From IMG/VR virus record IMGVR_UViG_3300032220_000751: a stretch of DNA of 64,000 bases, one strand, 5' to 3'. The translations under genes and the position numbers were made by a program. The DNA comes from a virus (Duplodnaviria > Heunggongvirae > Uroviricota > Caudoviricetes). Positions 3,009-56,123 of this stretch are shown piece by piece. Numbering within the stretch: the stretch's first letter is position 1; each line of letters begins with the position of its first letter. Below the pieces are notes generated by a model. It searched no databases and was not told the DNA's origin. It worked only from the letters and a program-made list of their open reading frames with translations.

Positions 3009-3036
3009 TTAGAACACATATTACTAAGTTGATAAT
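3009..3036 (+). promoter_or_regulatory. candidate sigma70-like promoter TTAGAA-N16-GATAAT
   Basis: Hexamers read by eye in the 165-nt gap upstream of gene 3085. Confidence 0.25.
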
Positions 3037-8105: not shown

Positions 8106-8679
8106 TGCAACGATGGTGCTGACGGTTCTGGCCTGCGCCATCGTCATCATACTCTCAATTGCAGTAGGTGGTATCATCCGGGCCATGAACCCTAAAAGGA
8201 TGATTCAAGAATATCGCTTTGTGAAATTGCACGGCGAAAATCATCTACCCATGGTGAGTCAACGATCCACCGACGGTGTGACTTACAAAGTAGCTGTAGG
8301 TACAGAAGATCAATTCGATGCATGGATGTCGATGGGTGTTTTTGATGATGAATTTCCCTACTTCGATTTTGATTTCTTATTAGATCATCGTGGCTGGACG
8401 ATGTCTGACGGTAGCGTCTATATGGTCAACCGTAGTTCCAAAGACAACTACCATGAATATCAGAGCATCATGCATGATCTGATCAAGGAACACCAAAAGC
8501 TTTATGGCGATGAGATTGGCCTTGAATCAACGGGTATGTATATCCCCAGTTATTTACAAGCAGCCATGGAGTATGAATACGCCGATCGTTTCCCAGGGGA
8601 ATGGGAAAAGTTCAAAGGTGAAAAAGAAGCAAAGAACTACGTAGAACCCATTGACCATTTCGTCAAACAACTCGCTTAA
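8095..8679 (+). CDS. membrane-anchored hypothetical protein (194 aa)
   Basis: Strong RBS AAGGAGG 5 nt before ATG 8095; N-terminal TM helix; the ORF-track start 7936 is upstream and looks non-coding. Confidence 0.55.
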   Translation: MDVSATMVLTVLACAIVIILSIAVGGIIRAMNPKRMIQEYRFVKLHGENHLPMVSQRSTDGVTYKVAVGTEDQFDAWMSMGVFDDEFPYFDFDFLLDHRGWTMSDGSVYMVNRSSKDNYHEYQSIMHDLIKEHQKLYGDEIGLESTGMYIPSYLQAAMEYEYADRFPGEWEKFKGEKEAKNYVEPIDHFVKQLA

Positions 8680-8695
8680 CTCAAGGAGCATCAAC

Positions 8696-9688
8696 ATGCC
8701 TCGTACCCTGAAAGACCTGATCAGCAATTCCATCTCGCAATCCAAGGTGCCAACCTTCAACGACATCAAAGCACCAGCATCATCGAAACCCCTGCCCTGG
8801 GAAAACAAGCAATCTCGTCTGACTCCGGAACAAGAGTTCCAGAAGTCGCTGAAGAAAGACGACAAGCCTGCTACGGTTGACCGCAGTGGCCTGGAACAAG
8901 TGAGCGATCCGGTCATGAAAGAAAACCTCACGCGTCTGGCTGATGCTGCTGAACGTATCGTGGCCAAGAAGCCTACCATCAAGGCAGTGGTCAAGCCCAA
9001 GAAGAAGCCGATGGTTTCCAAGGGTAAGGTCAAGCCGATCGATAAGCCTGCTCCGAAGCGTGAATCGATCACCCCCAAGGCCAAACCTACCGTGATCAAG
9101 ACCAAGGCTGTGACGCCTATCAAGTCTGGTAAAATGTCGGTCGGTGGTTTCGTGCAAGAGCTTAACAAAGCTGTCGGTAACACCAACGTGACTGCGGCAC
9201 CGGAACAAAAGAAAGGGGATGTGAATGCAGGTCAAAAGAAGGCTGGTCCCGGTCGTCCGAAGAGTGAAGGTAAGACCGCAGCACAAAAGCCGGGTAAGAG
9301 TGCACCTGCTAAGGGGGCTCCGGTGGGTAAGGCAGCAGCTGATAAACAAGCAGCTGTGAAGAAGGAAGTCAACAAGCCCAAGACGATGAAGAAGATCATC
9401 GACGCGGTTTCCGATCGCAAAGCATCGCCCAAGGAAATCGGTAAGAAGGTCGCTGACATCGTCGTGGAAGCCAAGAACGTGGCTACTAACAAAGAGATCG
9501 TTATCAATGCAAAAAACACCCCGGTTCAAGACAAGAAGGTTCCGGCCAAAGCGCTTCAATCTGCAGAAAAGCCCGCACCGAAGAAAGTCGTTCACGGTAA
9601 GGGTAATGTGTCTGCGCATAGCAGCAAGGCAAAACCGGTTCAATCTGGCAAAGCAGCTGGCAAAGCTGGCGTGAAGGCTAAGAAGTAA
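8696..9688 (+). CDS. lysine/alanine/proline-rich basic protein, histone-H1-like (putative DNA-binding or nucleoid protein)
   Basis: RBS AAGGAG 7 nt before ATG 8696; ~25% Lys with KPxx/AAGK repeats (KAKPVQSGKAAGKAGVKAKK); GC-rich codon usage. Confidence 0.6.
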   Translation: MPRTLKDLISNSISQSKVPTFNDIKAPASSKPLPWENKQSRLTPEQEFQKSLKKDDKPATVDRSGLEQVSDPVMKENLTRLADAAERIVAKKPTIKAVVKPKKKPMVSKGKVKPIDKPAPKRESITPKAKPTVIKTKAVTPIKSGKMSVGGFVQELNKAVGNTNVTAAPEQKKGDVNAGQKKAGPGRPKSEGKTAAQKPGKSAPAKGAPVGKAAADKQAAVKKEVNKPKTMKKIIDAVSDRKASPKEIGKKVADIVVEAKNVATNKEIVINAKNTPVQDKKVPAKALQSAEKPAPKKVVHGKGNVSAHSSKAKPVQSGKAAGKAGVKAKK

Positions 9689-9708: not shown

Positions 9709-9891
9709 ATGATGAAGAAAAGGAAACTGCGTTACAGACGCTGGCAAGTACCACGAGAAAGAGATCCGAACTTCCGTCGGATGTTTATCAAGTCGTGGCG
9801 TCGTGAACATTCTCGTATTCGTTATCCCTTGATGTTCCGGGAATGCTACATGATCCATCCTGAGTATTCCAGCTACCTGTTACACGGTTAA
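9709..9891 (+). CDS. arginine-rich small basic protein (60 aa)
   Basis: RBS AGGTGAG; MMKKRKLRYRRWQVPRERDPNFRRMF... Confidence 0.45.
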   Translation: MMKKRKLRYRRWQVPRERDPNFRRMFIKSWRREHSRIRYPLMFRECYMIHPEYSSYLLHG

Positions 9892-9926
9892 GTACTCACC
9901 ACCCTCAACTAAAAAGAAAGCTATTC

Positions 9927-10790
9927 ATGCTGAAAGTTCAAGTCGATTACCACGATGATGCTTTGTTCGACAGCACAGACTTCGAGCCGAAGATCATTAC
10001 TTTCCCTGGCGGGGAATGTCATGTGACTCTACCGGATGAATTGCTGGACAATCCACGTGCCCGTGCGTTTACCATTAAGACGCTGATCAAGAACGCCGAC
10101 CACATCATGCATTTGCTGATGGTTACAGACGCGATTCGTCGCCACTACGCGGGCTATCCGATTTTCCTACACATGCCGTACATTCCGTACGCACGTCAAG
10201 ACCGCGTAGCCAACCACGGCGAGTCTTTGTCGGCTCGTGTGTTCTGTGATCTGATCAATGCTCAGAACTACGAAGTCGTCAGCGTCGCTGATCCGCACAG
10301 CCCGGTGGTGGAAGCGCTGCTGAACCGCATCGACGTGGTCGATCCGATTTACATGGTCGAAGAAGTGCTGCAAAGCGATCTCTTCAAGGACGGTGTGGCG
10401 CTGGTTGCACCGGACGCAGGTGCCCGAAAGCGTGTGCTGAATATGGCCATGGAAGTCAACGTCGAAGACGTGATCTTTGCTGACAAGGTACGCGATACCA
10501 AGACTGGCAAGATCACCGGTACCGTGGTCAACAACGAAGTTCCTCAAGGTAAAGCTATTCTGGTCGTGGATGACATCTGTGACGGTGGTCGTACCTTCCT
10601 GGAACTGGGTAAGGTCTTAAAGGAGAAGACCGACCAACCGCTGTACCTGTACATTACCCATGGCATCTTCAGCAAAGGTCTGGAAGAACTCGGTAAGTAT
10701 TACGACCGTATCTTCACTGCCTACAACTGGAATGATGAAGAAGCCAACAATCCCCAACTGACCTTGATCAAGGAAGGAAATCTGCTGTGA
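9927..10790 (+). CDS. ribose-phosphate pyrophosphokinase (Prs) family protein; candidate ADP-ribose pyrophosphate synthetase of an NAD+ reconstitution pathway
   Basis: Prs motifs PYIPYARQDR and the nucleotide/PRPP loop VVDDICDGGRT; collinear with E. coli Prs; translationally coupled to the downstream NampT-like gene. Confidence 0.8.
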   Translation: MLKVQVDYHDDALFDSTDFEPKIITFPGGECHVTLPDELLDNPRARAFTIKTLIKNADHIMHLLMVTDAIRRHYAGYPIFLHMPYIPYARQDRVANHGESLSARVFCDLINAQNYEVVSVADPHSPVVEALLNRIDVVDPIYMVEEVLQSDLFKDGVALVAPDAGARKRVLNMAMEVNVEDVIFADKVRDTKTGKITGTVVNNEVPQGKAILVVDDICDGGRTFLELGKVLKEKTDQPLYLYITHGIFSKGLEELGKYYDRIFTAYNWNDEEANNPQLTLIKEGNLL

Positions 10791-12490
10791 GCGAACAACA
10801 AGAAAACATCGTCGAGAAAGTTGCCAATGGTCTCGTGCCATTCAACCTGGCAGACTTCTACAAGACTGGTCACCCAGCCATGTATCCTCAGGGTACTGAA
10901 ACCCTGGTGGCCAACTTTACCCCGCGCTCGGCCAAGTACGCTCCGGTACTGCCGGAATTGTTCGATAACAAGATCGTTTGGTTCGGCCTGCGTGGTTTCA
11001 TCCAGGAATGGCTGATCGATGTCTTCAATCGCGAGTTCTTCCAAAAACCCAAGGAAGAAGCCATCAAGAAGTACCGTCGTCGTATGGACACTTCTCTCGG
11101 TCCTGGTGCTGTCAGCATGAAGAAGCTGGAACTGCTCCATGATCTGGGTTACCTTCCGCTGGAAATTCGCGCCCTACCTGAAGGCGCTCGTGTGAACATC
11201 AAGGTACCGCCGGTACTGTTCATCAACACCGCTGGCCCTGAACTGTCGTGGGTGGCTACCTACTTCGAAACTCTGATGTCCTGCGAAAGCTGGAAAATCT
11301 CGACGGTCGGTACCATTGCTTTCGAGTTCCACAAGCTGCTGACCTACTTCGCTGTGTCCACTGGCGCGCCTCTGGACTTTGTGCGTTGGCAAGGTCACGA
11401 CTTCTCGTTCCGTGGCATGTCGGGTGTGCATGATGCAATGCGTACCTGCTCGGCTCACTTGCTGTCGTTCATGGGTACCGATACCATCCCGTCTATCGAC
11501 TACCTGGAAGACTACTACGACGCCGATTCCGACAAGGAACTGGTGGGTGGTTCGATCCCAGCATCGGAACACAGTGTGATGGCTCTGCGCATTCTGCTGA
11601 AGCTGAAGGAACTGGCCAAGCTGCCGGAGAACGCAGGTCTGACTCACAAGCAACTACGTAAGGCAGCTGAGCTGGAAGTGGTGCGTGACTATGCCATCAA
11701 GGAATACGACACTGGTCTGGTCTCCATGGTCTCGGATACCTTCGACTTCTGGAATGTGATCACTCACATCGCCAAGGTCCTGAAGCCTGAAATCATGCAA
11801 CGCAAGCCGGATGTGTTCGGTAATGCCAAGGTCGTCTTCCGTCCTGATTCGGGTGATCCAGTGTACATCCTGACCGGTTACAAGAACAGTGAAATCGTTG
11901 CTAATGGCGATGGTACTTTCACTGTCAATGCAACTGGCAGAGTCATCCAAGATCACGAGCGTCGTGGTGCTGTGGAATGCCTGTGGGATATCTTCGGTGG
12001 TACCGAAACCAGTCTCGGCTACAAGCTGCTGGATTCCCACGTCGGTCTGATCTACGGTGACTCGATCACTCTGCCGCGTGCTATGCGTATCCTGCGTCGT
12101 CTGCAAGACAAGGGCTTCGCATCCACCAACGTAGTCTTCGGTATCGGTTCGTACACTTACAACATGCTCTCCCGTGACGTCTTCGGTTGGGCCATGAAGG
12201 CGGTGTACGCGGTAGTCGATGGTGAGCCGGTTGAGATCTACAAGGATCCAGCAACTGACGACGGTATGAAGAAGTCGGCCAAGGGTCTGCTGCGTGTGGA
12301 TAAGGTAGGTAACAACTACTTCCTGACGGAGAACTGCACCCCGGAAGAGTTCGAAGGCGGTGAACTCAAGCCGGTGTTCCGTAATGGTGAGATGTTGGTC
12401 AAGCCTACCTTTAAGGAAGCCAAGGAACGTCTGCACCTTTCTTGGACGTGTCCGGAACCTAATAGCATCGTCTGGCAAGACGCTGCTTAA
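10787..12490 (+). CDS. nicotinamide phosphoribosyltransferase (NampT/NadV) family protein; alternatively Namat-like
   Basis: GTG start overlapping the Prs stop (GTGA), RBS AAGGAAGGAAA; NampT motifs DFYKTGH, LPLEIRALPEG, GHDFSFRG, PASEHS, VSDTFDFW, RPDSGDP, GDSIT, collinear with human NAMPT. Confidence 0.85.
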   Translation: MSEQQENIVEKVANGLVPFNLADFYKTGHPAMYPQGTETLVANFTPRSAKYAPVLPELFDNKIVWFGLRGFIQEWLIDVFNREFFQKPKEEAIKKYRRRMDTSLGPGAVSMKKLELLHDLGYLPLEIRALPEGARVNIKVPPVLFINTAGPELSWVATYFETLMSCESWKISTVGTIAFEFHKLLTYFAVSTGAPLDFVRWQGHDFSFRGMSGVHDAMRTCSAHLLSFMGTDTIPSIDYLEDYYDADSDKELVGGSIPASEHSVMALRILLKLKELAKLPENAGLTHKQLRKAAELEVVRDYAIKEYDTGLVSMVSDTFDFWNVITHIAKVLKPEIMQRKPDVFGNAKVVFRPDSGDPVYILTGYKNSEIVANGDGTFTVNATGRVIQDHERRGAVECLWDIFGGTETSLGYKLLDSHVGLIYGDSITLPRAMRILRRLQDKGFASTNVVFGIGSYTYNMLSRDVFGWAMKAVYAVVDGEPVEIYKDPATDDGMKKSAKGLLRVDKVGNNYFLTENCTPEEFEGGELKPVFRNGEMLVKPTFKEAKERLHLSWTCPEPNSIVWQDAA

Positions 12491-14079: not shown

Positions 14080-14086
14080 TTTGTAG

Positions 14087-14116
14087 ATACATATCACTAA
14101 AGTGTAGGTTAACCTA
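14087..14116 (+). promoter_or_regulatory. conserved promoter-like motif ATACATATCACTAAAGTGTAGGTTAACCTAAC (copy 1)
   Basis: 13-mer ATACATATCACTA is identical at 39454 and nearly identical at 52373; always intergenic, just upstream of an RBS. Confidence 0.5.
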
Positions 14117-15599: not shown

Positions 15600-15641
15600 A
15601 TTTACCGTCCTAGCCTATAGTGTGTTGAGAAGAGAAATATC

Positions 15642-15670
15642 TTGAAGACGAGTGCCAGAATTGGTATATG
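15642..15670 (+). promoter_or_regulatory. candidate sigma70-like promoter TTGAAG-N17-TATATG
   Basis: Hexamers with 17-nt spacer at the start of a 275-nt ORF-free gap; the same TATATGG -10 recurs at 26280. Confidence 0.35.
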
Positions 15671-15676
15671 GAACCG

Positions 15677-15824
15677 ATAGCTACATGCTTGTGGTGCATG
15701 GATGTTGATCGGTGAGTCGGTGGAGCACCACTGATCGGCTGTCATTGGCCGGACGCTAAGCGCAATTGGGGATTCGCATTCCCCCTCAGAGAGCAATGAC
15801 CATACTTCGAGAGGCTACAAAAAG
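15677..15824 (+). ncRNA. structured untranslated leader or small RNA (nested hairpins; GTCATTG...CAATGAC closing helix)
   Basis: No ORF in any frame; helices CCGAT/ATCGG, CATGC/GCATG, GTGG/CCAC, GGGGA/TCCCC and the 7-bp GTCATTG/CAATGAC pairing read directly. Confidence 0.3.
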
Positions 15825-15850
15825 CGGGAGGATTCGTCCTCTCGTTTTAT
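15825..15850 (+). terminator. rho-independent terminator or attenuator
   Basis: CGGGAGGA-ttcg-TCCTCTCG then TTTTAT, 25 nt before the next RBS. Confidence 0.7.
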
Positions 15851-15875
15851 GCCCTTAACCTAAAAAGGAAAACAA

Positions 15876-17092: not shown

Positions 17093-17704
17093 ATGATTAC
17101 CGTTAAGCGATACGTGCCAGGCTTTGTTGACATTGATGAAGAAGAGAAGGTTCCGACCAATGTCGATTGCCCCGTAGAGATTTTGAAGATTCCATTCGTT
17201 GCTCGATTGTTTACCGAAGGCTTCAGTCTCACAGTCAAGAAGTATCCTGAAGAAGAACGAATTCATCTGAAGGCTATGTTAGTGAACGACGAGGCTTCGC
17301 ATACTGTTGCTTTCATCAATGGTGTTAGCATCAGTGAATTGCTTACTGTATTTCCCATCGAAGAACTCACGTTTAAAGAACGTGCTGTACGAAACGTTAT
17401 AACCCCACTTACCATCAACATACTGGATAACGATGGGCGTTCCGGATTGCTCTTTTTATCCATCCAGCAGCAGTGGGGTATGCCTGGTGATAAATTAGAT
17501 TGGGCGATTGAAGTATTGAAAGAAGTCATCAGTAACAGTCCTCCATACGAAGGTTATGAGATCGTCAATATCTTCGACCTTGAAGTACATCTGAAGACTG
17601 GTAAACATTACAGTTTGGAAGTTAGTGCTACAGTGCAGGGTATGAGCAGCGGACAGTCACTTGCTTTTCAACATCGCGTCACTGTTAACTTTCTGAAAGG
17701 ATAA
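17093..17704 (+). CDS. hypothetical protein (203 aa), tandem paralogue of 17708
   Basis: RBS AAAGGA; N-terminus MITVKRYVPG...EILKIPF aligns with the next gene. Confidence 0.55.
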   Translation: MITVKRYVPGFVDIDEEEKVPTNVDCPVEILKIPFVARLFTEGFSLTVKKYPEEERIHLKAMLVNDEASHTVAFINGVSISELLTVFPIEELTFKERAVRNVITPLTINILDNDGRSGLLFLSIQQQWGMPGDKLDWAIEVLKEVISNSPPYEGYEIVNIFDLEVHLKTGKHYSLEVSATVQGMSSGQSLAFQHRVTVNFLKG

Positions 17705-17707
17705 ATC

Positions 17708-18436
17708 GTGATTCAAATTCGTCGTTATGTAGCGGGTGATTACGATCCCCGCACAGGTCCACTGCATTTCGCAGTGCAGACCCCACAGGAAATCCTGCAA
17801 CAACCATTCATTCGTAGCGTCGTCGAAGAAGATGGCTTCGTCTTGAAGTTCACTGACGATGGTCAAGGTCGCATCATCATTCAAGGTGAGTGCCCGATGT
17901 CCAAACAACGCAAGATCGTTGCTGTGGTTGAAGGTACTAACGTTGATGAGATGAAGAAAATCATGCCGTACCTTCAGCATACCTTGGCTACCATTGCTGA
18001 ACGTAACCGTATTGCACCGGTGGAGATTCGTTACGAGCCGCCGTCGATTGACTTCCTCGAACGTTTCATGGATAGCTTTGTAGCAGCTGTCCGTTATAAC
18101 GACTACAAGGGTGTGGCGCATCTCATCAAGAATGAGATCCTGAAGAACTCTCCAGTCTTCATCGGTTACACGGTATACGAAGCCATGAAGTTCGCTATGT
18201 CTTTGAACACTCGTGGCAACGGTATTGAACTGGTGGTGCTGTGTGGTGTTCATGCATGTCGTAACGGTCTGAAGGTAGAAGAGTTCATGTTCTCTCAAGA
18301 AGTGAAGATCACTTTCGGTACGATGCCACATGCTGAGAAGGAACCGACTGCAGCACCACGGACAGCAGTCCAAGAGACATCGCTGATCGACACCCCCATC
18401 GTCTCGTCTGGACTGCACTCGAATCTGGCACTCTAG
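17708..18436 (+). CDS. hypothetical protein (242 aa), tandem paralogue of 17093
   Basis: GTG start behind AAAGGA; (M)IQIRRYVAG...EILQQPF aligns with 17093. Confidence 0.55.
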   Translation: MIQIRRYVAGDYDPRTGPLHFAVQTPQEILQQPFIRSVVEEDGFVLKFTDDGQGRIIIQGECPMSKQRKIVAVVEGTNVDEMKKIMPYLQHTLATIAERNRIAPVEIRYEPPSIDFLERFMDSFVAAVRYNDYKGVAHLIKNEILKNSPVFIGYTVYEAMKFAMSLNTRGNGIELVVLCGVHACRNGLKVEEFMFSQEVKITFGTMPHAEKEPTAAPRTAVQETSLIDTPIVSSGLHSNLAL

Positions 18437-18950: not shown

Positions 18951-20006
18951 ATGCAACAATATTTAGCCGTCATGCGTGACATCCGTGAGAACGGGGAATG
19001 GAAAGAAAACCGCACTGGCATTCGCACCCTGATGATCGATGGTGCTATGGCACGCTACGATCTGCGTAAAGGCTTTCCTGCCGTAACCACTAAGAAGCTG
19101 GCATGGAATGCCGTTAAGGGTGAGCTGTGCGGTTTCCTGCGCGGTTTCACCAGCGCTGCTGACTTCCGTGACTTCGGTTGTCGCGTCTGGGATCAAAATG
19201 CAAATGAAAACAAGCAATGGCTGGACAATCCTTTCCGTAAGGGCACTGATCATCTGGGTCCGGTCTATGGTGCTCAATGGCGTAACTGGAAAGCTTACAA
19301 GAAGATCAATGACTATTCACAGAACGCTACTAACATCGCACACAAGTTGATCAAAGAAGACGGCTGGGAATCCATTGTCGACGATGCTGAAAACATTGAC
19401 TTCGCTATCTACTACAAGGAGATCGATCAGATCCGTGAATGTATCACCAAGATCTTCAAGGATCCTGACAACCGTCGCAACATCTTCCACGCCTGGAACT
19501 TCGCTGAACTGGATGAGATGGCTCTGGTACCGTGCCACCTGCTGTACCAGTTCCTGCCGAACAAGGATACCAAGGAAATGTCGCTGGTCATGTACCAACG
19601 CAGCTGCGACTACTTCCTGGGCGTGCCGTTCAATGTGGCGTCGGCTTCTCTGTTGTTGGAGATCGTCTGTCACCTGACTGGCTACAAGCCTAAGAACTTC
19701 GTTCACTTCATGGCTGATGTACATCTTTACGAAAACCATCTGGATCAAGTTGATGAACAGCTGTCGCGTGAACCGCTCCCACTGCCGACTTTGAAGATCA
19801 CGGGTCTGAAGTCCTACGATGAGATCTACAAGCAAGCTTTCATCGAACGTCCGCCGCGTGATGGTGTATATCCGGCAGGATACGATCCTCAAGCAGACAC
19901 CATGATCGATCTGGTCATGAAGGAAATCGACAACCTCCACCCCGACATGTTCGAGTTGGAGAACTATCAACATCACGCCGCTATCAAAGCACCGATGGCA
20001 GTCTAA
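18951..20006 (+). CDS. thyA: thymidylate synthase (ThyA family) with two large insertions (351 aa)
   Basis: Collinear with E. coli ThyA: MQQYL..M, TGI.T, AWN..EL..MAL.PCH (catalytic Cys), QRSCDYFLGVPFNVAS (Asn as in dUMP-specific enzymes), HLY.NH; ~55-aa insert before the PCH region and ~60-aa C-terminal insert. Confidence 0.88.
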   Translation: MQQYLAVMRDIRENGEWKENRTGIRTLMIDGAMARYDLRKGFPAVTTKKLAWNAVKGELCGFLRGFTSAADFRDFGCRVWDQNANENKQWLDNPFRKGTDHLGPVYGAQWRNWKAYKKINDYSQNATNIAHKLIKEDGWESIVDDAENIDFAIYYKEIDQIRECITKIFKDPDNRRNIFHAWNFAELDEMALVPCHLLYQFLPNKDTKEMSLVMYQRSCDYFLGVPFNVASASLLLEIVCHLTGYKPKNFVHFMADVHLYENHLDQVDEQLSREPLPLPTLKITGLKSYDEIYKQAFIERPPRDGVYPAGYDPQADTMIDLVMKEIDNLHPDMFELENYQHHAAIKAPMAV

Positions 20007-20970: not shown

Positions 20971-23453
<2,483 letters not shown>

Positions 23454-32505: not shown

Positions 32506-33756
32506 ATGGAAGATACTCGCGTTTTAGCACGCATCGTCCGTATCGACGATGTTTTACCTCACCCCAATGCCGACAAGATGCAACTGGGCATCGTCGGTGG
32601 TTGGCAGTGCTGCATCAAACTGGACGAATTTAAGAAGGGCGATCTGGCCTTGTACTGCGAGATCGATTCTCTCTTGCCTGTCTCGGTCCCTGAATTTGCT
32701 TTCCTGGAAGACCGTAAGGAATCCATCAAGGTAGTCAACGAAGTCGTCTACTCCCGTATCAAGACGATCCGGCTGCGTAAGGAACTGTCCCAAGGTCTGT
32801 TGGGTAAGATCCCACGTCAACTGGGTAAAGTAGTTGAAGGTCAAGACGTGACTGAAGCACTTGGCATCATCAAATACGAGAAGAAGCAAACTCGTGTCAG
32901 TGACGGTCCTGAACTGAAACCTGGTCTGATCAAACGCTTCTGCGAATGGCTGAGGAAAGACATCAAGGATGATCTGCTGCTGCCATGGCCTTACTTCATC
33001 AAGAAGACAGAACAAGAGCGCGTTCAGAATCTGCATTCCCAGTACCTCAAAGCAGTTGAGGATGGTGAGACCTTTGAAGAATCGGTGAAGTTAAACGGTG
33101 AATCGTTTACTGCCTTCTTCGTATTCAAAGATGGTGTCCATGGTCACGCTGGTGTTTGCTCACGCAACTATGAGATCCAGACTACTGATGTAGTTTGGAC
33201 CTGGAAGCAATCCTTCCGTTATTGGCTGTCTCGCTTCGTGGGTGGTAACTCTCGTATTCTGCGGACCCGGCACTTTGTCTGGCCTGATTGGCGTACTGGC
33301 GTCAAAGCCGATGATGATCCATTCGTACGCCACTGGAAACGTTTGGATCTGGCTAAGAAGCTGGAAGACTACCAGTACAAGTCAGGTGTACAGATTGCCA
33401 TTCAGGGTGAGTTAGCTGGTCCTGGACATCAGAGCAATAAGGAAGGTCTGGAGACTGCTGACGTCTACGTGTATCAAGTATACGTGATCGATTCTGACTT
33501 CGGTATGAAGATGGGTCTGCTATTACCAGAAGACGCACGTCGGGTGACAGAGGAACTTGGTCTGAAGTACGTTCCTGTTCCTGAGAAGAACGCTAAGCTA
33601 CCACCTACCATCAAGGAAGCCTTGCTGCGTGCGGATGGTCCGGCTTATTTCGATAAGAGCCGCAGTCGTGAAGGTCTGGTCTACAAGAGCAATACCCGTG
33701 ACTTCTCGTTCAAGGTGATTAGTAACAAGTTCTTGGAAAAGAACGAGGACGAATAA
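32506..33756 (+). CDS. ATP-dependent RNA ligase-like nucleotidyltransferase with N-terminal tRNA-binding-type OB domain
   Basis: N-terminus VLPHPNADKMQLGIVGGW resembles the tRNA-binding (Myf-like) OB domain; motif I KLNGES (KxxG as in Rnl2/Rnl5), EGLVYK and FKVISNKF as motifs IV/V. Confidence 0.6.
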   Translation: MEDTRVLARIVRIDDVLPHPNADKMQLGIVGGWQCCIKLDEFKKGDLALYCEIDSLLPVSVPEFAFLEDRKESIKVVNEVVYSRIKTIRLRKELSQGLLGKIPRQLGKVVEGQDVTEALGIIKYEKKQTRVSDGPELKPGLIKRFCEWLRKDIKDDLLLPWPYFIKKTEQERVQNLHSQYLKAVEDGETFEESVKLNGESFTAFFVFKDGVHGHAGVCSRNYEIQTTDVVWTWKQSFRYWLSRFVGGNSRILRTRHFVWPDWRTGVKADDDPFVRHWKRLDLAKKLEDYQYKSGVQIAIQGELAGPGHQSNKEGLETADVYVYQVYVIDSDFGMKMGLLLPEDARRVTEELGLKYVPVPEKNAKLPPTIKEALLRADGPAYFDKSRSREGLVYKSNTRDFSFKVISNKFLEKNEDE

Positions 33757-33770
33757 CCTAGAAAATTGAA

Positions 33771-33796
33771 GACACTTATTATTAAAGTGTAGTAGG
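33771..33796 (+). promoter_or_regulatory. variant of the conserved promoter-like motif (GACACTTATTATTAAAGTGTAGTAGG)
   Basis: Shares TAAAGTGTAG with the 14087 copy; followed by hairpin AGGAGTT...AACTCCT. Confidence 0.3.
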
Positions 33797-38236: not shown

Positions 38237-38848
38237 ATGCTGATCAAAAAGAATGACGACGGTTCATTTCAAGTACTGCTGGCTTATGAAGGTCAGACTA
38301 TCGGTAATCTCAAAGCAGTGGTGTCTGCTAAGGTCTTGGATGAAACTTATCTCGACTTCAAGACGGGTAAACGCCACTTCCAATCGGAACTGGATCATCC
38401 TCGCTATAAGTTTGATCCGATGAAACAAGCGCAAGCAATCATCGATGATAACTTAGGTGATCCTCAGATGGAAGCGATGGAGCGCGCTATGACGATCAAG
38501 CTTGAGAACGTCTGCGGTTACATCACTGACATGTTACTGCTTCGTCCTGAGTCTATCGGGATCGACATTCTGATTGGTACGTGGAAGTTCAACGGACCGA
38601 TGAAAGAAGTAGCAGAGAAGTGCTATAAGGAAACAGGTGATGTGAAACTGTCTCTGCGTGCATTCTCCAATGGTACCGGTACCTGCAACGGTATTAATGT
38701 CGTCAAGGTCATCACCTGGGACTTCGTTGACCCCAACGAAAAGTACAAGCAGGATCTGTACGAGACGCTTGGCCAAGAGAAGGCAGATAGCCTGATTCGT
38801 TATCTGAACAACGAACCCCTTACTCAACCGGATAATCATGCTGATTGA
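38237..38848 (+). CDS. hypothetical protein (203 aa), tandem paralogue of 38838
   Basis: RBS AAAAAGG; MLIKKNDDGSFQVLLA..., VCGYITD, ETGDVKL and VITWDF align with the next gene. Confidence 0.55.
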   Translation: MLIKKNDDGSFQVLLAYEGQTIGNLKAVVSAKVLDETYLDFKTGKRHFQSELDHPRYKFDPMKQAQAIIDDNLGDPQMEAMERAMTIKLENVCGYITDMLLLRPESIGIDILIGTWKFNGPMKEVAEKCYKETGDVKLSLRAFSNGTGTCNGINVVKVITWDFVDPNEKYKQDLYETLGQEKADSLIRYLNNEPLTQPDNHAD

Positions 38849-39452
38849 AAAATACGACGATGGTTCATGTTTGGTTCTGCTGGCGTTTACCGAACAGATC
38901 ATGAACAACAATGCGATCCTGACGTATACGGCGATCGATAAACTGATGCAGCGTTATAATAACGAAGAATGTCGTCGCAGTCCGTTTTATACGGAATACG
39001 GTCATCCGCATCTGGATCGTCGGGATTACTATACAGATGAACTGGATGGTGAAGGTAAGGTATTGAACGACCGCCTATTCCAGTTCAACATGGATCGTGT
39101 TTGCGGGATGATCGATGATCTGCATGTGGAGAAGCGCCCTAACCTGCGGCACATCTTGACCGGTGTTTGGTCACCCTATGGACCATATGCTTCTGAAGCA
39201 GCGAAGCTGATCCATGAAACAGGTCAAATCAAATTGGGTCCACGGTCACTGTGTGATTTGGTTTCCAATGGTAAAGGCGGTATGACTGGTACAGTAGCCA
39301 AACTCATTGGTTGGGACTTCATGAACCCGTATGACCAATCCATCACTTCCATGGCTAAACTGGATACACACATCTGTCATCCTGTTCGCTACTGGATAGA
39401 TGACAGTGCTCCTCCAGTCCCACTCCCAGAAAAACAACTCGAACTAGGTTGA
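38838..39452 (+). CDS. hypothetical protein (204 aa), tandem paralogue of 38237
   Basis: MLIEKYDDGSCLVLLA..., VCGMIDD, ETGQIKL, LIGWDF; overlaps the upstream gene by 11 nt. Confidence 0.55.
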   Translation: MLIEKYDDGSCLVLLAFTEQIMNNNAILTYTAIDKLMQRYNNEECRRSPFYTEYGHPHLDRRDYYTDELDGEGKVLNDRLFQFNMDRVCGMIDDLHVEKRPNLRHILTGVWSPYGPYASEAAKLIHETGQIKLGPRSLCDLVSNGKGGMTGTVAKLIGWDFMNPYDQSITSMAKLDTHICHPVRYWIDDSAPPVPLPEKQLELG

Positions 39453-39453
39453 G

Positions 39454-39481
39454 ATACATATCACTACTTTGGTAAAACAAA
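39454..39481 (+). promoter_or_regulatory. conserved promoter-like motif ATACATATCACTACTTTGGTAAAAC (copy 2)
   Basis: Identical 13-mer to 14087; begins 2 nt after the stop codon; followed by RBS AAAGGAG. Confidence 0.5.
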
Positions 39482-41584: not shown

Positions 41585-41733
41585 TCACCGTTACCACATA
41601 CTCTCAGATGCTATCTCTGACCATCGATGGTGAACGGTCACTGACTGGTTTAGAACTCGCCATCACAATCGCCGTCGTTGTAGTTGGTGTATTGGCGATT
41701 GCATTGATGTATCGAGCAATGAAGAAAGGTTGA
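41581..41733 (+). CDS. putative 50-aa membrane peptide
   Basis: ATGA overlap; hand translation MITVTTYSQMLSLTIDGERSLTGLELAITIAVVVVGVLAIALMYRAMKKG fills the gap to the next gene exactly. Confidence 0.4.
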   Translation: MITVTTYSQMLSLTIDGERSLTGLELAITIAVVVVGVLAIALMYRAMKKG

Positions 41734-41734
41734 C

Positions 41735-42166
41735 ATGCTGAAAGTTCAAATCATCTATCCGGCTTATAATCAGAGTTTAGATCAGCCGGGTATGTGGGAG
41801 TTGTTAAGGCATATGTGGAGTGAAACACCTGGTGGTTTGATGGTCAGGGGCGCATACATCACTAACATTCCTAACGATCCTTCCACAGGAGTTGATCCCA
41901 TCTACTTCTTTGGACGTCGTCCAGATTCACCAGAGGTCTGGCATGGCGATGTTGCACATGCTCAACTGTTTAGCAACATCCAAGACCTGATCAGTGAACT
42001 AGAGAAGATGCGTCAAGAGTCTTCTCGTGGGAACGATGATGGTCAGTACTTTAACCATGAGCATCGTAGTCAGTTGGGTTACAGGGTATCGGTTTATCCG
42101 GTTTACTGGAATCCGCTTTATACGCCCCATTTTGAAATGGTAAGGGATAAACAACACTATGGCTAA
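41735..42166 (+). CDS. hypothetical protein (143 aa)
   Basis: RBS GAAAGG; ORF. Confidence 0.5.
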   Translation: MLKVQIIYPAYNQSLDQPGMWELLRHMWSETPGGLMVRGAYITNIPNDPSTGVDPIYFFGRRPDSPEVWHGDVAHAQLFSNIQDLISELEKMRQESSRGNDDGQYFNHEHRSQLGYRVSVYPVYWNPLYTPHFEMVRDKQHYG

Positions 42167-52313: not shown

Positions 52314-52344
52314 TCCCACACTCCTTCGGGGGTGTGGGTTTTGA
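52314..52344 (+). terminator. rho-independent terminator
   Basis: CCCACACTCC-ttcg-GGGGTGTGGG then TTTTGAT. Confidence 0.8.
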
Positions 52345-52372
52345 TCTCCTCTTTCTTTTTAGAAATAATTAG

Positions 52373-52400
52373 ACACATATCACTAGCTTGAGTAACAAAT
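52373..52400 (+). promoter_or_regulatory. conserved promoter-like motif ACACATATCACTAGCTTGAGTAACAAATG (copy 3)
   Basis: 12 of 13 identity to the 14087 and 39454 copies; sits between a terminator and the next RBS. Confidence 0.5.
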
Positions 52401-52434
52401 GCTCTTTATGACTAAAACGAAAGAGGAGTAACAA

Positions 52435-52638
52435 ATGAAACAAGATCAAACTGGACCGATTAGTCCGCCCGATAAGAGTCTCATTGAGATTCAAGAAGAA
52501 TTCGTACAGTATCCCATCATCCCGCCACGTATATGCAATCTTCGTGAATCGGCTGAACGTATCCGACAGATGGGGACCTTCAGTCATATCACAGATTCTG
52601 TCGAATGGCAACGAGAGATGCGCTCGGACTGGGACTAA
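52435..52638 (+). CDS. hypothetical protein (67 aa)
   Basis: RBS AAGAGGAG; ORF. Confidence 0.5.
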   Translation: MKQDQTGPISPPDKSLIEIQEEFVQYPIIPPRICNLRESAERIRQMGTFSHITDSVEWQREMRSDWD

Positions 52639-53531: not shown

Positions 53532-53866
53532 TGGACACTTCAGATGTTCGGAAACGGATGATGAATCGGTCTGCTGAAAGACTCTTAGCAACACAAGAAG
53601 CCCTTAACCAGATCCAAGAGAGGAAGGACGCATTGCAAAGACGATTAATGCTCTTTCCACATGTCGTTGATCGTCAACAACCTCAACCGGGTGACCACAT
53701 CATCGATGTGAATGGCGTTGTTCATATCGCAATGCAGGCGCAGGGTCGCCGCATTCTGACGGGTTACGAAGGGGTACTTGCCAACACGCCTCAAACACCG
53801 ACCATCAATGAAAGCGACATTGAAACTTGTCCTGTAATCGGTAGCAAAGACCATTTGCGATTGTGA
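53528..53866 (+). CDS. hypothetical protein (112 aa)
   Basis: ATGATG overlap; RBS AAAGGTGA. Confidence 0.5.
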   Translation: MMDTSDVRKRMMNRSAERLLATQEALNQIQERKDALQRRLMLFPHVVDRQQPQPGDHIIDVNGVVHIAMQAQGRRILTGYEGVLANTPQTPTINESDIETCPVIGSKDHLRL

Positions 53867-53873
53867 GGCAAGC

Positions 53874-54068
53874 TTGAAAATCCGCAAACGTAAAAGACTG
53901 CTTGACTTGACTGCCATCCCCTTCATTCAAAACAAATACGATCTGCGTTTCTACGTAGACAGGAATTACTATCGCTTTGTCAAGAACTTGGGATGGCAAA
54001 AATCTAAGCGTGTGTTTGGCATCACTGCTCGCAATCTCGTGGCGGTGCCATTACTTAAGGTGGAGTGA
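53874..54068 (+). CDS. small basic protein with N-terminal KIRKRKR motif (64 aa)
   Basis: TTG start behind GTGAGG; no in-frame ATG; the N-terminus aligns with the two following genes. Confidence 0.45.
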   Translation: MKIRKRKRLLDLTAIPFIQNKYDLRFYVDRNYYRFVKNLGWQKSKRVFGITARNLVAVPLLKVE

Positions 54069-54376
54069 TGAATATCCGTAAACGTAAGCGCAAGGTCGAA
54101 GCTTCTACTTGGTTTAACAGGATCGTTCACTATCCTGATGTAGATGCACCCACTCAAACAGCGCAATGCACCCAGCACAACTTTGAATGGAAGGATAAAC
54201 ATTCGCAGCGTGCTGAGAACAAATACGAGCGTCAAAGCTTGCGTAATTTCCGTCGGCATGGGAAATGGTGGAAGTGGCGCCCCTATGGTACTCTTTCTCC
54301 AGTGACTTACTGGAAGAGAACCAAGAAACGCTTAGCTGAAGAAAAGAAGGCGCTGGCTCAAGCAACTTCAGTCTAA
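54068..54376 (+). CDS. basic Trp-rich protein with N-terminal NIRKRKRK motif (102 aa)
   Basis: ATG overlapping the upstream stop; pI clearly basic. Confidence 0.5.
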   Translation: MNIRKRKRKVEASTWFNRIVHYPDVDAPTQTAQCTQHNFEWKDKHSQRAENKYERQSLRNFRRHGKWWKWRPYGTLSPVTYWKRTKKRLAEEKKALAQATSV

Positions 54377-54387
54377 AGGACATTGAC

Positions 54388-54987
54388 ATGAAGCAAAGGA
54401 AACATAAACGCCGTCTGTATGGTCGTATTCAATCTGACGCTATTGACTACTACAAGAATTACGACTGGGAAGCTTTCAAGAAAGTTGTAATGGATCGTAG
54501 TAAACATACCAAGCTTAGCTGGATAATCTTGGATGCGGAGTTTGCCGATAGTCAGCCGGAACACAAGAAGTGGCAGAGTCTAGCCGCTGAGTCTCTTAAG
54601 ATTCATCGCAGGCAGATGTTCCGTAAACGCCGTCCTCGATTGAATATGGCATATGGCGGTCAATTCTCCATGACATCGATTCCCAATCCATTCCCTGATC
54701 CTCGTAGTCGTAGTAATCGTGATCTCGTGACGGTTGGTGAGATCACAGACTTCGATCCTAAGCCATTCATCGTCAAGGAACGTCATTTCATGCGGCGAGT
54801 AGCACCTGCTGCGTTAAAAGGAGAGCATAGCCATCCTGATGTGACTGAAGTCAAGATCGGCAATGGTGACAGGGAGTTCTATGCTGTTGATCCCGGCTCA
54901 GATAAATGCATAGGTATGCGTGGGTTTATCGATGAGAATGGTCATTTACACCAGACCTCGTTCAATCTAGTCAATCCTGGGAAATAA
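54388..54987 (+). CDS. basic protein with N-terminal KQRKHKRR motif (199 aa)
   Basis: RBS AAAGGA; ORF. Confidence 0.55.
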   Translation: MKQRKHKRRLYGRIQSDAIDYYKNYDWEAFKKVVMDRSKHTKLSWIILDAEFADSQPEHKKWQSLAAESLKIHRRQMFRKRRPRLNMAYGGQFSMTSIPNPFPDPRSRSNRDLVTVGEITDFDPKPFIVKERHFMRRVAPAALKGEHSHPDVTEVKIGNGDREFYAVDPGSDKCIGMRGFIDENGHLHQTSFNLVNPGK

Positions 54988-54990
54988 ATT

Positions 54991-55752
54991 ATGGATGACG
55001 ATAATGTCATGAAGCGTCTGACTAATGCATTACAGTCAGAAGAGATGCAAAAGAAGTTGAGGGAGATGCAATTGCGTTTTATGCCTACTTCCGAGATGAC
55101 TCCAGAAGATGTAGAGAAAGCATTAAGACGTCGATTCAATGAATTGATCGGTACTGAACAAGGTTCGAGAATCGAGCTTGTTGCGGTTCATCCGGACTCC
55201 ATTCGTGAGATGACGGTATCTATGGTTATGCCCCCTGAGGTTAAAGACTTGCTGTTTACCAAAATGGGCAATCTCCCTGCGGCCATTATGCCTCCGATCA
55301 AGATCCCTATGGTCAAACCTGAGAACTTCTCTCGTTCCGTCGAAGGGATTGAGCCTGATGAGATCTCTGGCTGGATCAGTAATGAGAACAACGGTGATGA
55401 TGACTATGTGGTCTTCGTTCGGCAGAAAGATTCCAAAGACTACTGGGATGATAAACCGCTAGCGGATCTCATGCGGGAGAAGTACTCAAATAAGTTAGTC
55501 ACTATCCATTACTGGACCTGTGACCGTGAGTTACCTCCTGAAGTCTTGAAGACAGCTGCCTTAGAACATATCTTCGGTATCACTGAAGCTGACTATCAAA
55601 CGCACTATTCGGATACGACCGGTTATCTCTGGTTGGATCAGGATATCAAGATTGGTGGTCACGATCTGTTAGAAGAACTACGTTCTCATGCAGGCAAGTA
55701 TCTTTACATGGAGATCTTTGTACATGAACACCCGCCAATTAAAGCGGTATAA
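54991..55752 (+). CDS. hypothetical protein (253 aa)
   Basis: RBS GGGAAATAA; ORF. Confidence 0.55.
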   Translation: MDDDNVMKRLTNALQSEEMQKKLREMQLRFMPTSEMTPEDVEKALRRRFNELIGTEQGSRIELVAVHPDSIREMTVSMVMPPEVKDLLFTKMGNLPAAIMPPIKIPMVKPENFSRSVEGIEPDEISGWISNENNGDDDYVVFVRQKDSKDYWDDKPLADLMREKYSNKLVTIHYWTCDRELPPEVLKTAALEHIFGITEADYQTHYSDTTGYLWLDQDIKIGGHDLLEELRSHAGKYLYMEIFVHEHPPIKAV

Positions 55753-55948
55753 AAACAATCAATCTCTTGTGCGCCTTAAGTTCTTGGTGCATGGAGAAAT
55801 CCAAGCTTTGATGAAACGGTTCCCTTACCGTCGCATTGAAGACCTGATAGCTTATCACATGGTTCGTAGTGATCAAGTCATTGTGACCAAGATGATGAGC
55901 ACTTATTTGAAACAACTACCGGTACCTAGGAGAATCAGAAATGGCTAA
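55724..55948 (+). CDS. hypothetical basic protein (74 aa)
   Basis: ORF overlapping the upstream 3' end by 29 nt; alternative start at 55688. Confidence 0.35.
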   Translation: MNTRQLKRYKNNQSLVRLKFLVHGEIQALMKRFPYRRIEDLIAYHMVRSDQVIVTKMMSTYLKQLPVPRRIRNG

Positions 55949-56123
55949 AGAACAACAACCTCATCGTGTCCTGAACGGCATCTTCAGCAAGGTCATCGAT
56001 CAGAGCGTTAAAGACAAGGGCGTCAGTCCCGGCCTAGCCAAGAAACAGCTGGTGGAGTCGTTCCCTCAGGCTAAGCCCAAGCACAAGCCGAAATCCAAGA
56101 AACCGCAGCAACAGGTGCGTTAA
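55941..56123 (+). CDS. small basic protein (60 aa)
   Basis: RBS TAGGAGAA; ORF. Confidence 0.45.
   Translation: MAKEQQPHRVLNGIFSKVIDQSVKDKGVSPGLAKKQLVESFPQAKPKHKPKSKKPQQQVR

What the first reader, a model, noticed from the sequence alone, without database searches (positions are those of the whole stretch)
53874..54987. Three consecutive genes whose products begin with a shared KRKR-rich N-terminal signature
The proteins start (M)KIRKRKRLL, MMNIRKRKRKV and MKQRKHKRRLY. The first has no ATG and must start at TTG behind GTGAGG. Nucleotide similarity over the first ~20 nt (ATCCG[CT]AAACGTAA) suggests duplication of an N-terminal module. All three are very basic and Trp/Tyr-rich. A conserved N-terminal basic peptide on otherwise different proteins suggests a targeting or packaging signal (virion or compartment import) or nucleic-acid-binding arms.
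Basis: seen in the sequence. Interest (0 to 1): 0.55.

Follow-up and report, generated by a model that had tools for sequence, protein, structure and literature searches.

The report
Three adjacent orphan genes share basic N-terminus
Three neighbouring small genes of an uncultivated ~310 kb phage, with no relatives in any database searched, really do start with the same lysine/arginine block; it most likely marks a small phage-specific family of nucleic-acid-binding proteins, which is moderately interesting but not surprising.

Summary
ORF1 (53874-54068, TTG start, 64 aa), ORF2 (54068-54376, 102 aa) and ORF3 (54388-54987, 199 aa) are consecutive, tightly packed, coding-like + strand genes. All three start M-[K/N]-x-R-K-[R/H]-K-R in the same register. 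Such N-termini are rare: 4 of 111 genes in this window and 1 of 383 in unrelated viral DNA. Three of the four are adjacent, and the fourth (9712-9891) lies 44 kb upstream.

Past about residue 14 the proteins show no detectable similarity, in protein, in DNA or across reading frames. Where the amino acids are identical, the codons match no more often than codon usage predicts. The similarity is therefore held at the protein level and is not a recent DNA duplication.

All three are orphans: only self-hits among 5.8 billion protein clusters, and for ORF3 among 1.84 billion representatives. Every contig that carries them is about 100% identical, so conservation cannot be tested.

The genes lie in an accessory-gene operon headed by a phage-specific promoter-like motif. 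My best reading (confidence about 0.4) is a family of small, largely non-globular, very basic proteins with an N-terminal Lys/Arg arm that binds nucleic acid. A T4-style capsid-targeting tag remains possible (about 0.12) but has no direct support. Interest is modest.

The parts
52315..52338 (+). Intrinsic-terminator-like hairpin (10 bp stem, TTCG loop, T-run) that ends the upstream transcription unit
52371..52386 (+). Phage-specific promoter-like motif AGACACATATCACTAG heading the operon that holds the three genes; one of 5 copies, all on the + strand and 4 of the 5 in gaps between genes
   Evidence: 5 matches against 0.63 expected
53865..53868 (+). GAGG Shine-Dalgarno sequence 5 nt before the TTG start of ORF1
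   Evidence: read directly
53874..54068 (+). ORF1: 64 aa, TTG start, pI 10.84, 25% K+R, orphan
53877..53897 (+). ORF1 N-terminal tag K2-I-R-K-R-K-R8
54068..54376 (+). ORF2: 102 aa, ATG overlapping the ORF1 stop, pI 10.6, 6 Trp, orphan; residues 1-44 predicted coil, helices 45-64 and 78-100
54071..54094 (+). ORF2 N-terminal tag N2-I-R-K-R-K-R-K9
54388..54987 (+). ORF3: 199 aa, orphan; basic N-terminal half (residues 1-100, pI 10.35, net +13) and near-neutral C-terminal half (pI 6.6); low-confidence beta strands are predicted only in residues 152-195
54391..54414 (+). ORF3 N-terminal tag K2-Q-R-K-H-K-R-R9
54616..54639 (+). Second, internal polybasic block in ORF3 (M77-F-R-K-R-R-P-R84); possible trace of a gene fusion or an internal start
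9712..9891 (+). Fourth gene with the same kind of N-terminus (MKKRKLRYRRW; 59 aa, pI 11.15), 44 kb upstream, directly after a 330 aa Lys/Ala/Pro-rich H1-like ORF (8696-9688)

Best explanation
ORF1, ORF2 and ORF3, plus a fourth gene at 9712-9891, are real, co-transcribed genes of an uncultivated ~310 kb phage. ORF1 and ORF2 are probably translationally coupled. They form a small lineage-restricted family, or a set that shares one module, of very basic and largely non-globular proteins.

Their common feature is an extreme N-terminal Lys/Arg arm, M-[K/N]-x-R-K-[R/H]-K-R, carrying +5 to +6 charges within eight residues. An aromatic residue often follows within 3-9 positions (Y11 in ORF3, W15 in ORF2, F17 in ORF1, W11 in the 9712 gene). 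The arm is kept by selection on the protein, while the rest of each protein has diverged beyond recognition or has a separate origin.

The most likely mechanism is electrostatic docking of the arm on a polyanion, DNA or RNA. This is how the arginine-rich motifs of lambda-type N proteins and the N-terminal arms of some virus coat proteins work. The dissimilar C-terminal parts would then give each protein its own activity or specificity.

Shown: the genes, the motif, its rarity and clustering, protein-level rather than DNA-level similarity, orphan status, and the operon context. Inferred: nucleic-acid binding, common descent, and expression before the late phase.
For: - The motif is real, position-specific and rare, and three of the four carriers are adjacent.
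- Codon identity at identical residues equals the codon-usage expectation, so the constraint acts on the peptide and not on DNA or RNA.
- pI is 9.85-11.15 and K+R is 19-29%.
- A single-sequence AlphaFold model of ORF2 gives coil for residues 1-44 and two helices, with pTM 0.24, so no compact fold.
- The fourth member lies 21 nt downstream of a 330 aa Lys/Ala/Pro-rich histone-H1-like ORF, so the phage encodes other polycationic proteins.
- The other top-ranking N-terminal matches between adjacent genes in this window are true tandem paralogues (25-31% identity over their full length). Tandem duplication therefore operates in this genome, and in those pairs too the extreme N-termini are closely matched.
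- N-terminal arginine-rich motifs that fold on binding RNA are established for phage N proteins (PMC11480772).
Against: - There is no direct evidence of nucleic-acid binding; the inference rests on composition.
- No Pfam, PHROG, NCBIfam, PADLOC or PDB match points to a DNA- or RNA-binding fold.
- No homologues exist, so conservation of the arm cannot be shown.
- No cognate repeated RNA hairpin or DNA site was identified.
- The lengths differ (64, 102, 199 aa) and nothing beyond about residue 14 supports paralogy.
- The arm is Lys/Arg mixed, not Arg-dominated like the classical motifs.
Confidence: 0.4

Rival explanations
1. Capsid (or compartment) targeting tag. The polybasic N-terminus would direct otherwise unrelated proteins into the prohead or onto the packaged DNA, as the ~10-residue capsid targeting sequence does for T4 internal proteins IPI, IPII and IPIII. 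It might then be removed by the prohead protease.
For: - The architecture matches the T4 case. Adjacent small basic genes share only the first ~10 residues: T4 ipIII (193 aa, pI 9.5) and ipII (100 aa, pI 9.3) are adjacent, start with the identical MKTYQEFIAEA, and sit among non-structural genes.
- The targeting sequence is the only conserved part of the very diverse T-even internal proteins, and it is cut off after packaging (PMC3012670; PMC7697877).
- ORF1 and ORF2 have an acidic residue at position 11 followed by L/A (LLD-LTA, KVE-AST), loosely like T4 IAE-AS.
- ORF2 and ORF3 (102 and 199 aa) are close in size to IPII and IPIII. This may be coincidence.
Against: - The tag has no sequence likeness to the T4 targeting sequence.
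- No consistent L/I-x-E site follows it, and ORF3 has none nearby.
- There is no similarity to the T4 internal proteins.
- The tag is on only 4 of about 150 genes in 84 kb.
- The operon carries the same promoter-like motif as four other + strand sites in this stretch of accessory and metabolic genes, which suggests pre-late expression.
- No structural genes, protease or scaffold lie in the window, so the machinery is unverified.
- The weak Peptidase_S80 and phrog_3014 hits to ORF3 residues 125-154 (E = 0.027 and 0.1) cover only 25-30 positions and are probably chance.
Confidence: 0.12
2. Relic of tandem duplication with no special role for the tag. The three genes would be fast-evolving paralogues in which the first residues merely diverged least, or a polybasic start is simply tolerated. 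The shared N-terminus would then be neither a signal nor a functional arm.
For: - The window holds other tandem paralogue pairs whose extreme N-termini match closely (38237/38838: 7 of 9 residues identical at the N-terminus against 31% overall; 17093/17708: 5 of 9 against 25%).
- Proteins of 64-102 aa at about 20% identity would escape detection.
- There is a weak hint of shared residues (Y22, N38, W41 in ORF1 and ORF2 without gaps; KNLGW against KNYDW in ORF1 and ORF3; ORF1 against ORF3 residues 1-76 with the first 10 residues removed, p = 0.026 uncorrected).
Against: - Synonymous sites in the tag are saturated while 6 of 7 residues stay identical between ORF1 and ORF2, which implies purifying selection on the peptide.
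- The contrast between the tag and the rest is far sharper than in the true paralogue pairs.
- A fourth copy lies 44 kb away on an unrelated-looking 59 aa protein.
- The lengths differ threefold.
Confidence: 0.25
3. An effect of the translation-initiation region or the mRNA. The shared 5' coding sequence (AAA/AAT ATC CGY AAA CGT AAR) would be kept for translation efficiency, or as the binding site of a translational regulator, and not for the peptide it encodes.
For: - ATCCGYAAACGTAA is exact at both the ORF1 and ORF2 starts.
- AAA Lys codons are over-used in the tags, although the genome prefers AAG (64%).
- ORF3 and the 9712 gene share ATG AAG xAA AGG AAA, including the rare AGG codon.
- Another unrelated gene pair (9927 and 41735) shares its start region, including upstream bases (26 of 31 nt).
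- The predicted hairpin at 54050-54071 pairs the ORF2 Shine-Dalgarno and start region.
Against: - Codon identity at identical residues is no higher than chance (3 of 6 against 2.55; 2 of 6 against 2.52).
- ORF3 encodes the same peptide with largely different codons.
- The upstream regions are not conserved.
- CGN-rich codons do not lower mRNA structure.
Confidence: 0.06
4. Membrane- or envelope-directed cationic peptides. A polybasic, Trp-rich segment would bind anionic phospholipid, giving a role in host takeover, exclusion or lysis.
For: ORF2 has a WWKW cluster (HGKWWKWRPY) and basic, aromatic character. The genes sit among accessory genes of unknown function.
Against: There is no hydrophobic or clearly amphipathic segment long enough for membrane insertion, and no lysis genes lie nearby. 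ORF3 is not rich in Trp or Tyr.
Confidence: 0.07

Closest known systems
T4 internal proteins IPI, IPII, IPIII and their N-terminal capsid targeting sequence
   Same: Small basic phage proteins that share only their first ~10 residues and are otherwise unrelated. Two of the T4 genes are adjacent (ipIII then ipII) and lie among non-structural genes. Their sizes (193, 100 and 95 aa) are close to 199, 102 and 64 aa.
   Different: The T4 tag is MKT(Y/F)(Q/K)EF..., amphipathic and not basic, and ends in a protease site (E then A). Here the tag is R-K-R-K-R with no consistent cleavage site. There is no sequence similarity. No protease, scaffold or virion data are available. The promoter class is shared with other sites in an accessory and metabolic gene region.
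N-terminal arginine-rich motifs of lambdoid N (and Nun) proteins that bind boxB RNA
   Same: Basic, largely unstructured phage proteins of about 100 aa. The RNA-binding element is a short basic peptide at the N-terminus, and an aromatic residue follows the basic run (PMC11480772; the stacking role of Trp18 in lambda N is from my own knowledge).
   Different: There is no homology to N proteins (no Pfam or PHROG hit). The run is a Lys/Arg mix rather than Arg-rich. No boxB-like hairpin was found. A single boxA-like TGCTCTTTA at 52400 is at chance level. Four tagged genes would be unusual for an antiterminator.
Polycationic N-terminal arms of virus DNA/RNA-condensing proteins (for example the microvirus J protein and the coat-protein arms of ssRNA viruses); from my own knowledge
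   Same: A short, highly basic terminal segment that neutralises nucleic-acid charge. The proteins are small and aromatic residues lie nearby.
   Different: Those proteins are structural and present in the virion. Here nothing shows virion association, and the genes lie in an accessory-gene operon.
Tandem paralogue families elsewhere in this window (17093/17708; 38237/38838)
   Same: Adjacent + strand genes with closely matching N-termini.
   Different: Those pairs match over their full length (25-31% identity) and have similar sizes. The three genes match only in residues 1-14.

Membership tests
T4-type internal proteins with a capsid targeting sequence | N-terminal ~10-residue consensus MKT(Y/F)(Q/K)EF(I/T)(A/S)(E/T) | tested here: not met
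   T4 ipI, ipII and ipIII were fetched and translated. The tags here are M[KN]xRK[RH]KR.
T4-type internal proteins with a capsid targeting sequence | The tag ends in a prohead-protease site (L/I-x-E followed by a small residue; the motif is from my own knowledge) | tested here: not met
   ORF1 has L9-L10-D11, ORF2 has K9-V10-E11-A12, and ORF3 has no acidic residue before D17. The pattern is not consistent.
T4-type internal proteins with a capsid targeting sequence | Sequence similarity of the mature part to known internal proteins | tested here: not met
   BLASTP of ORF3 against IPIII gave E = 0.09 for a single comparison. ORF2 against IPII gave no alignment. The internal proteins are themselves very diverse, so this test is weak.
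T4-type internal proteins with a capsid targeting sequence | The genome encodes a T4-type prohead protease and scaffolding core, and the proteins are present in virions | not testable with these tools
   Only 84 kb of the ~310 kb genome could be read, and it holds no recognisable structural genes. No proteomics data exist.
Lambdoid N-type antiterminators (arginine-rich motif proteins) | Homology to the N protein family | tested here: not met
   No Pfam, PHROG or NCBIfam hit.
Lambdoid N-type antiterminators (arginine-rich motif proteins) | A basic motif at the N-terminus of a small, basic, disordered protein | tested here: met
   6 K/R in residues 2-11, pI 9.9-10.8, and ORF2 residues 1-44 predicted coil. 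This shows compositional likeness only.
Lambdoid N-type antiterminators (arginine-rich motif proteins) | A cognate nut site (boxA plus a boxB hairpin) downstream of the promoter | tested here: inconclusive
   There is one exact boxA-like 9-mer at 52400 in the operon leader, but such 9-mers are not enriched (20 against 14 expected with one mismatch). No conserved boxB-like hairpin was seen in the five promoter-proximal leaders.
Phage prohead protease (Peptidase S80 / phrog_3014) | A significant match over the catalytic domain | tested here: not met
   Only ORF3 residues 125-154 match, at E = 0.027 (14.1 bits against a cut-off of 23.4) and E = 0.1.

The most novel reading that the evidence does not exclude
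The R-K-R-K-R N-terminus is a new kind of phage protein-sorting tag. It would be a polybasic functional analogue of the T4 capsid targeting sequence. It would load a variable set of orphan effector proteins into the head, or onto the packaged DNA, of a deeply divergent ~310 kb phage for co-injection into the host.
Probability: 0.1. Interest if true: 0.6.

Novelty: new member of a known kind. Interest (0 to 1): 0.3.

Why it matters
If the arm binds nucleic acid, these are further examples of the small cationic orphan proteins that large phages carry in accessory operons. They would be useful candidates for host-takeover or genome-organising factors, but not a new principle.

It would matter more if the tag proved to be a sorting signal. 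That would give a second, chemically different example of the T4 targeting-sequence principle, and a short portable peptide for loading cargo into a giant-phage capsid.

The case also shows that a short N-terminal module can be kept under selection on proteins that have no relatives among about 15 billion predicted proteins.

Tried and rejected
Homology searches, all empty:
- Pfam, PHROGs, NCBIfam and PADLOC for the three genes and their neighbours.
- PDB sequence search.
- tblastn against 50,697 phage records.
- IMG/VR locus search.
- The 5.8-billion-cluster search for each of the three proteins found only self.
- The exhaustive HMMER search of 1.84 billion representatives with ORF3 found only self.

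Comparative genomics failed:
- The 8 loci shown that carry ORF3 (from the 17 contigs read) are 99.98-100% identical to the window. The only difference in the three genes is A27E in ORF2.
- The neighbouring 253 aa and 297 aa proteins have no close relatives in IMG/VR.

A scan of IMG/VR for DNA encoding M[KN]I[RS]K[RS]K[RS] gave 33 hits. This is about the number I estimated for chance matches, and nearly all are out-of-frame, purine-rich stretches rather than gene starts.

Structure prediction:
- ORF3 as a single sequence gave pLDDT 39 and is unusable.
- ORF2 gave pLDDT 63.5 and pTM 0.24, two helices and no compact fold, so no fold search was run.

Rejected ideas:
- One gene broken by frameshifts: the three ORFs are in three different frames, each with its own Shine-Dalgarno sequence and start.
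- Origin by duplication followed by a frameshift: no DNA or cross-frame similarity beyond the first 30 nt.
- A signal peptide or membrane anchor: no hydrophobic segment.
- A non-coding RNA in place of ORF1: no Rfam hit, and the fold z-score is only -2.2.
- A prohead-protease relationship for ORF3: only a short sub-threshold match.
- A boxA/nut site: at chance level.

A literature search for polybasic N-terminal tags in jumbo phages, and for the sample accessions, found nothing.

Full report
**Where the window comes from.** The window is part of a contig of about 310 kb that was recovered almost identically from several metagenomes (JGI 3300043572 and the ENA KRAE22-1 scaffolds). All recognisable genes are on the + strand. 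They are tightly packed and have Shine-Dalgarno sequences. The identifiable products are auxiliary enzymes:
- nicotinamide phosphoribosyltransferase, NAD-dependent DNA ligase, RNA ligase and thymidylate synthase;
- NADAR, thymidylate kinase, a PRPP-synthetase-like protein, a cyclophilin, an HD_4 hydrolase, a Lar-like protein and a GNAT acetyltransferase (precomputed Pfam hits).

The ligase is at most 44.6% identical to those of any GenBank phage record, and the top matches are Serratia jumbo phages of about 275 kb. Megablast of the region finds nothing. This is a deeply divergent large phage.

ORF1 (53874-54068) starts at TTG, the first start codon after the in-frame stop at 53835, with GAGG 5 nt upstream. 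ORF2 (54068-54376) starts at an ATG that overlaps the ORF1 stop. ORF3 (54388-54987) follows 11 nt later, behind AAGGA. The products begin MKIRKRKRLLDL, MNIRKRKRKVEA and MKQRKHKRRLYG.

A codon log-odds score trained on the long genes of the window is positive in the annotated frame of all three (+0.39, +0.26, +0.40) and negative in both other frames. Without ORF1 there would be a 201 nt gap. In this genome most gaps of that size hold a terminator hairpin or a promoter-like motif. The predicted fold of the ORF1 region pairs the ORF2 Shine-Dalgarno and start region in a hairpin, which fits translational coupling (z = -2.2, weak evidence).

**The pattern is not chance.**
- Of 111 + strand genes, four have at least 6 K/R in residues 2-11: the three genes and a 59-60 aa gene at 9709/9712-9891 (MKKRKLRYRRW). 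A run of three among four hits has a probability of about 0.002.
- No further case occurs in the 20 kb I could add to either side.
- Only one case occurs among 383 crude gene calls in unrelated viral fragments and a T4 segment.
- Within each protein, K/R is enriched at the N-terminus relative to its own composition (p = 0.013, 0.014, 0.0035).
- The order R4-K5-R/H6-K7-R8 is in the same register in all three.
- ORF1/ORF2 and ORF1/ORF3 rank second and third of 6105 pairs for identity in residues 2-10. Two of the three other pairs with at least 5 identities are true tandem paralogues.

The proteins are indeed very basic (pI 10.84, 10.60, 9.85). Only ORF2 is clearly rich in Trp and Tyr (6 W, 4 Y); ORF3 is not.

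**What is shared and what is not.** BLASTP and shuffle-calibrated Smith-Waterman comparisons find nothing significant once the first ten residues are removed. The best result is ORF1 against ORF3 residues 1-76, p = 0.026 before correction for ten tests. Nucleotide and cross-frame comparisons beyond the first 30 nt are also at background. This argues against a recent duplication followed by a frameshift.

At the identical residues of the tag, codons match no more often than codon usage predicts (ORF1/ORF2 3 of 6 against 2.55; ORF1/ORF3 2 of 6 against 2.52). The 15 nt upstream are not alike. The constraint acts on the protein, and any common origin is old.

ORF3 also has an internal second polybasic block (M77-FRKRRPR). 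Its basic half (residues 1-100, net +13) is followed by a near-neutral second half; low-confidence beta strands are predicted only in residues 152-195.

**Orphan status.** None of the three proteins has a relative:
- The family libraries and PDB give nothing above noise.
- tblastn against GenBank phages and the IMG/VR locus search give nothing.
- The 5.8-billion-cluster search returns only the query for each protein.
- An exhaustive HMMER pass over 1.84 billion representatives returns only ORF3 itself.

The contigs that carry the genes differ by one or two bases. The only change in the three genes is A27E in ORF2. A DNA-pattern scan of IMG/VR for the peptide M[KN]I[RS]K[RS]K[RS] gave 33 hits, about the number I estimated for chance matches, and almost none lie at gene starts. 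The tag is not a widespread phage signature.

**Context.** A strong terminator hairpin (52315-52338) is followed by AGACACATATCACTAG (52371-52386). This is one of five copies of a motif found only on the + strand, four of them in gaps between genes (5 against 0.63 expected). That copy heads an operon of small orphan genes that includes the three genes, an acidic 253 aa protein, two more small basic proteins, and the HD_4 hydrolase. The next hairpins lie at about 57430 and 62600. The other four copies lie elsewhere in this stretch of accessory and metabolic genes, which suggests, but does not prove, expression before the late phase. The fourth tagged gene lies 21 nt after a 330 aa Lys/Ala/Pro-rich ORF that resembles histone H1 in composition.

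**Structure.** Single-sequence AlphaFold was uninformative for ORF3 (pLDDT 39). For ORF2 it gave a coil for residues 1-44 and two helices with no compact fold (pLDDT 63.5, pTM 0.24).

**Interpretation.** The data show a short N-terminal module under protein-level constraint on four small, very basic and otherwise dissimilar proteins, three of them in tandem.
- Best reading (about 0.4): a Lys/Arg arm that docks the proteins on DNA or RNA. It would work like the N-terminal arginine-rich motifs of phage N proteins (PMC11480772) or the basic arms of virus nucleic-acid-condensing proteins. The variable remainder would give each protein its own role. The family probably arose by tandem duplication, which is active in this genome.
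- Main rival (about 0.25): the tag is a slowly diverging relic with no role of its own.
- Most interesting rival (about 0.12): a sorting tag like the T4 capsid targeting sequence. T4 ipIII and ipII are adjacent, basic, 193 and 100 aa long, identical in their first 11 residues, otherwise unrelated, and lie among non-structural genes. The targeting sequence is the only conserved part of the T-even internal proteins and is removed by the head protease (PMC3012670; PMC7697877). Against membership: the tag sequence differs, no consistent cleavage site follows it, there is no similarity to the internal proteins, and the structural genes of this phage could not be read.
- An mRNA-level explanation is unlikely because the codons are not conserved.

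**Verdict.** This is a real, non-random feature with an ordinary most-likely explanation and no comparative or experimental handle at present. I classify it as a new member of a known kind (small cationic phage accessory proteins with a basic N-terminal arm). Interest 0.3.

Noticed in passing
window 3012-3027, 14085-14100, 33770-33785, 39452-39467, 52371-52386: A phage-specific promoter-like motif, AGAyACATATCACTAr. There are five copies, all on the + strand, four of them in gaps between genes and the fifth overlapping the last base of the gene that ends at 39452 (5 against 0.63 expected). Two sit about 30 nt after strong GC-hairpin and T-run terminators. It loosely recalls single-subunit RNA polymerase promoters (…CACTA…).
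   Followed up: partly
window 8696-9688 (ORF 8651-9688): A 330 aa Lys/Ala/Pro-rich, low-complexity, very basic protein (pI 10.3, almost no aromatic residues). It resembles histone H1 or AlgP in composition. It has no Pfam or NCBIfam hit and no match in GenBank phages. The fourth polybasic-start gene follows it directly.
   Followed up: partly
window 9914-9944 and 41722-41752: Two otherwise unrelated genes (9927-10790, PRPP-synthetase-like, 287 aa; 41735-42166, 143 aa) share MLKVQ[VI]xY and the upstream AAGAAAG (26 of 31 nt identical). This is a second case of sharing restricted to the gene start, here at the DNA level.
   Followed up: partly
window 17093-18436; 38237-39452: Two pairs of tandem paralogues with similarity over their full length (25% and 31% identity). 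Both pairs also match closely at the extreme N-terminus (5 of 9 and 7 of 9 residues). Function unknown.
   Followed up: partly
window 52387-52437: The operon leader holds a direct repeat, GAGTAACAAATG. The first copy starts a 10-codon mini-ORF (MLFMTKTKEE) that ends 4 nt before the start of the first gene. The leader also holds a CTCTTT...AAAGAG inverted repeat that overlaps the Shine-Dalgarno sequence, and a boxA-like TGCTCTTTA at 52400 (at chance level in the window).
   Followed up: partly
window 15600-15875: A 276 nt GC-rich gap between genes that folds more stably than shuffled controls (z = -2.5; 2 of 200 shuffles fold as well) and ends in a terminator-like hairpin. It is a candidate small RNA, with no Rfam match.
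   Followed up: partly
window 3717-5450, 9927-12490, 20980-23013: An NAD-centred gene set: a protein with a NADAR domain, a PRPP-synthetase-like protein, nicotinamide phosphoribosyltransferase and an NAD-dependent DNA ligase. RNA ligase (32506-33756) and thymidylate synthase (18951-20006) lie in the same window.
   Followed up: partly
window 55676-56123: Two more small, very basic orphan proteins (74 aa, pI about 11; 60 aa, pI 10.5, with a KPKHKPKSKKP tail) lie just downstream of the acidic 253 aa gene, in the same operon as the three genes.
   Followed up: no
window 54147: The only polymorphism in the three genes across the 8 loci compared: C to A, giving A27E in ORF2, in two of the loci (from different records).
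   Followed up: yes
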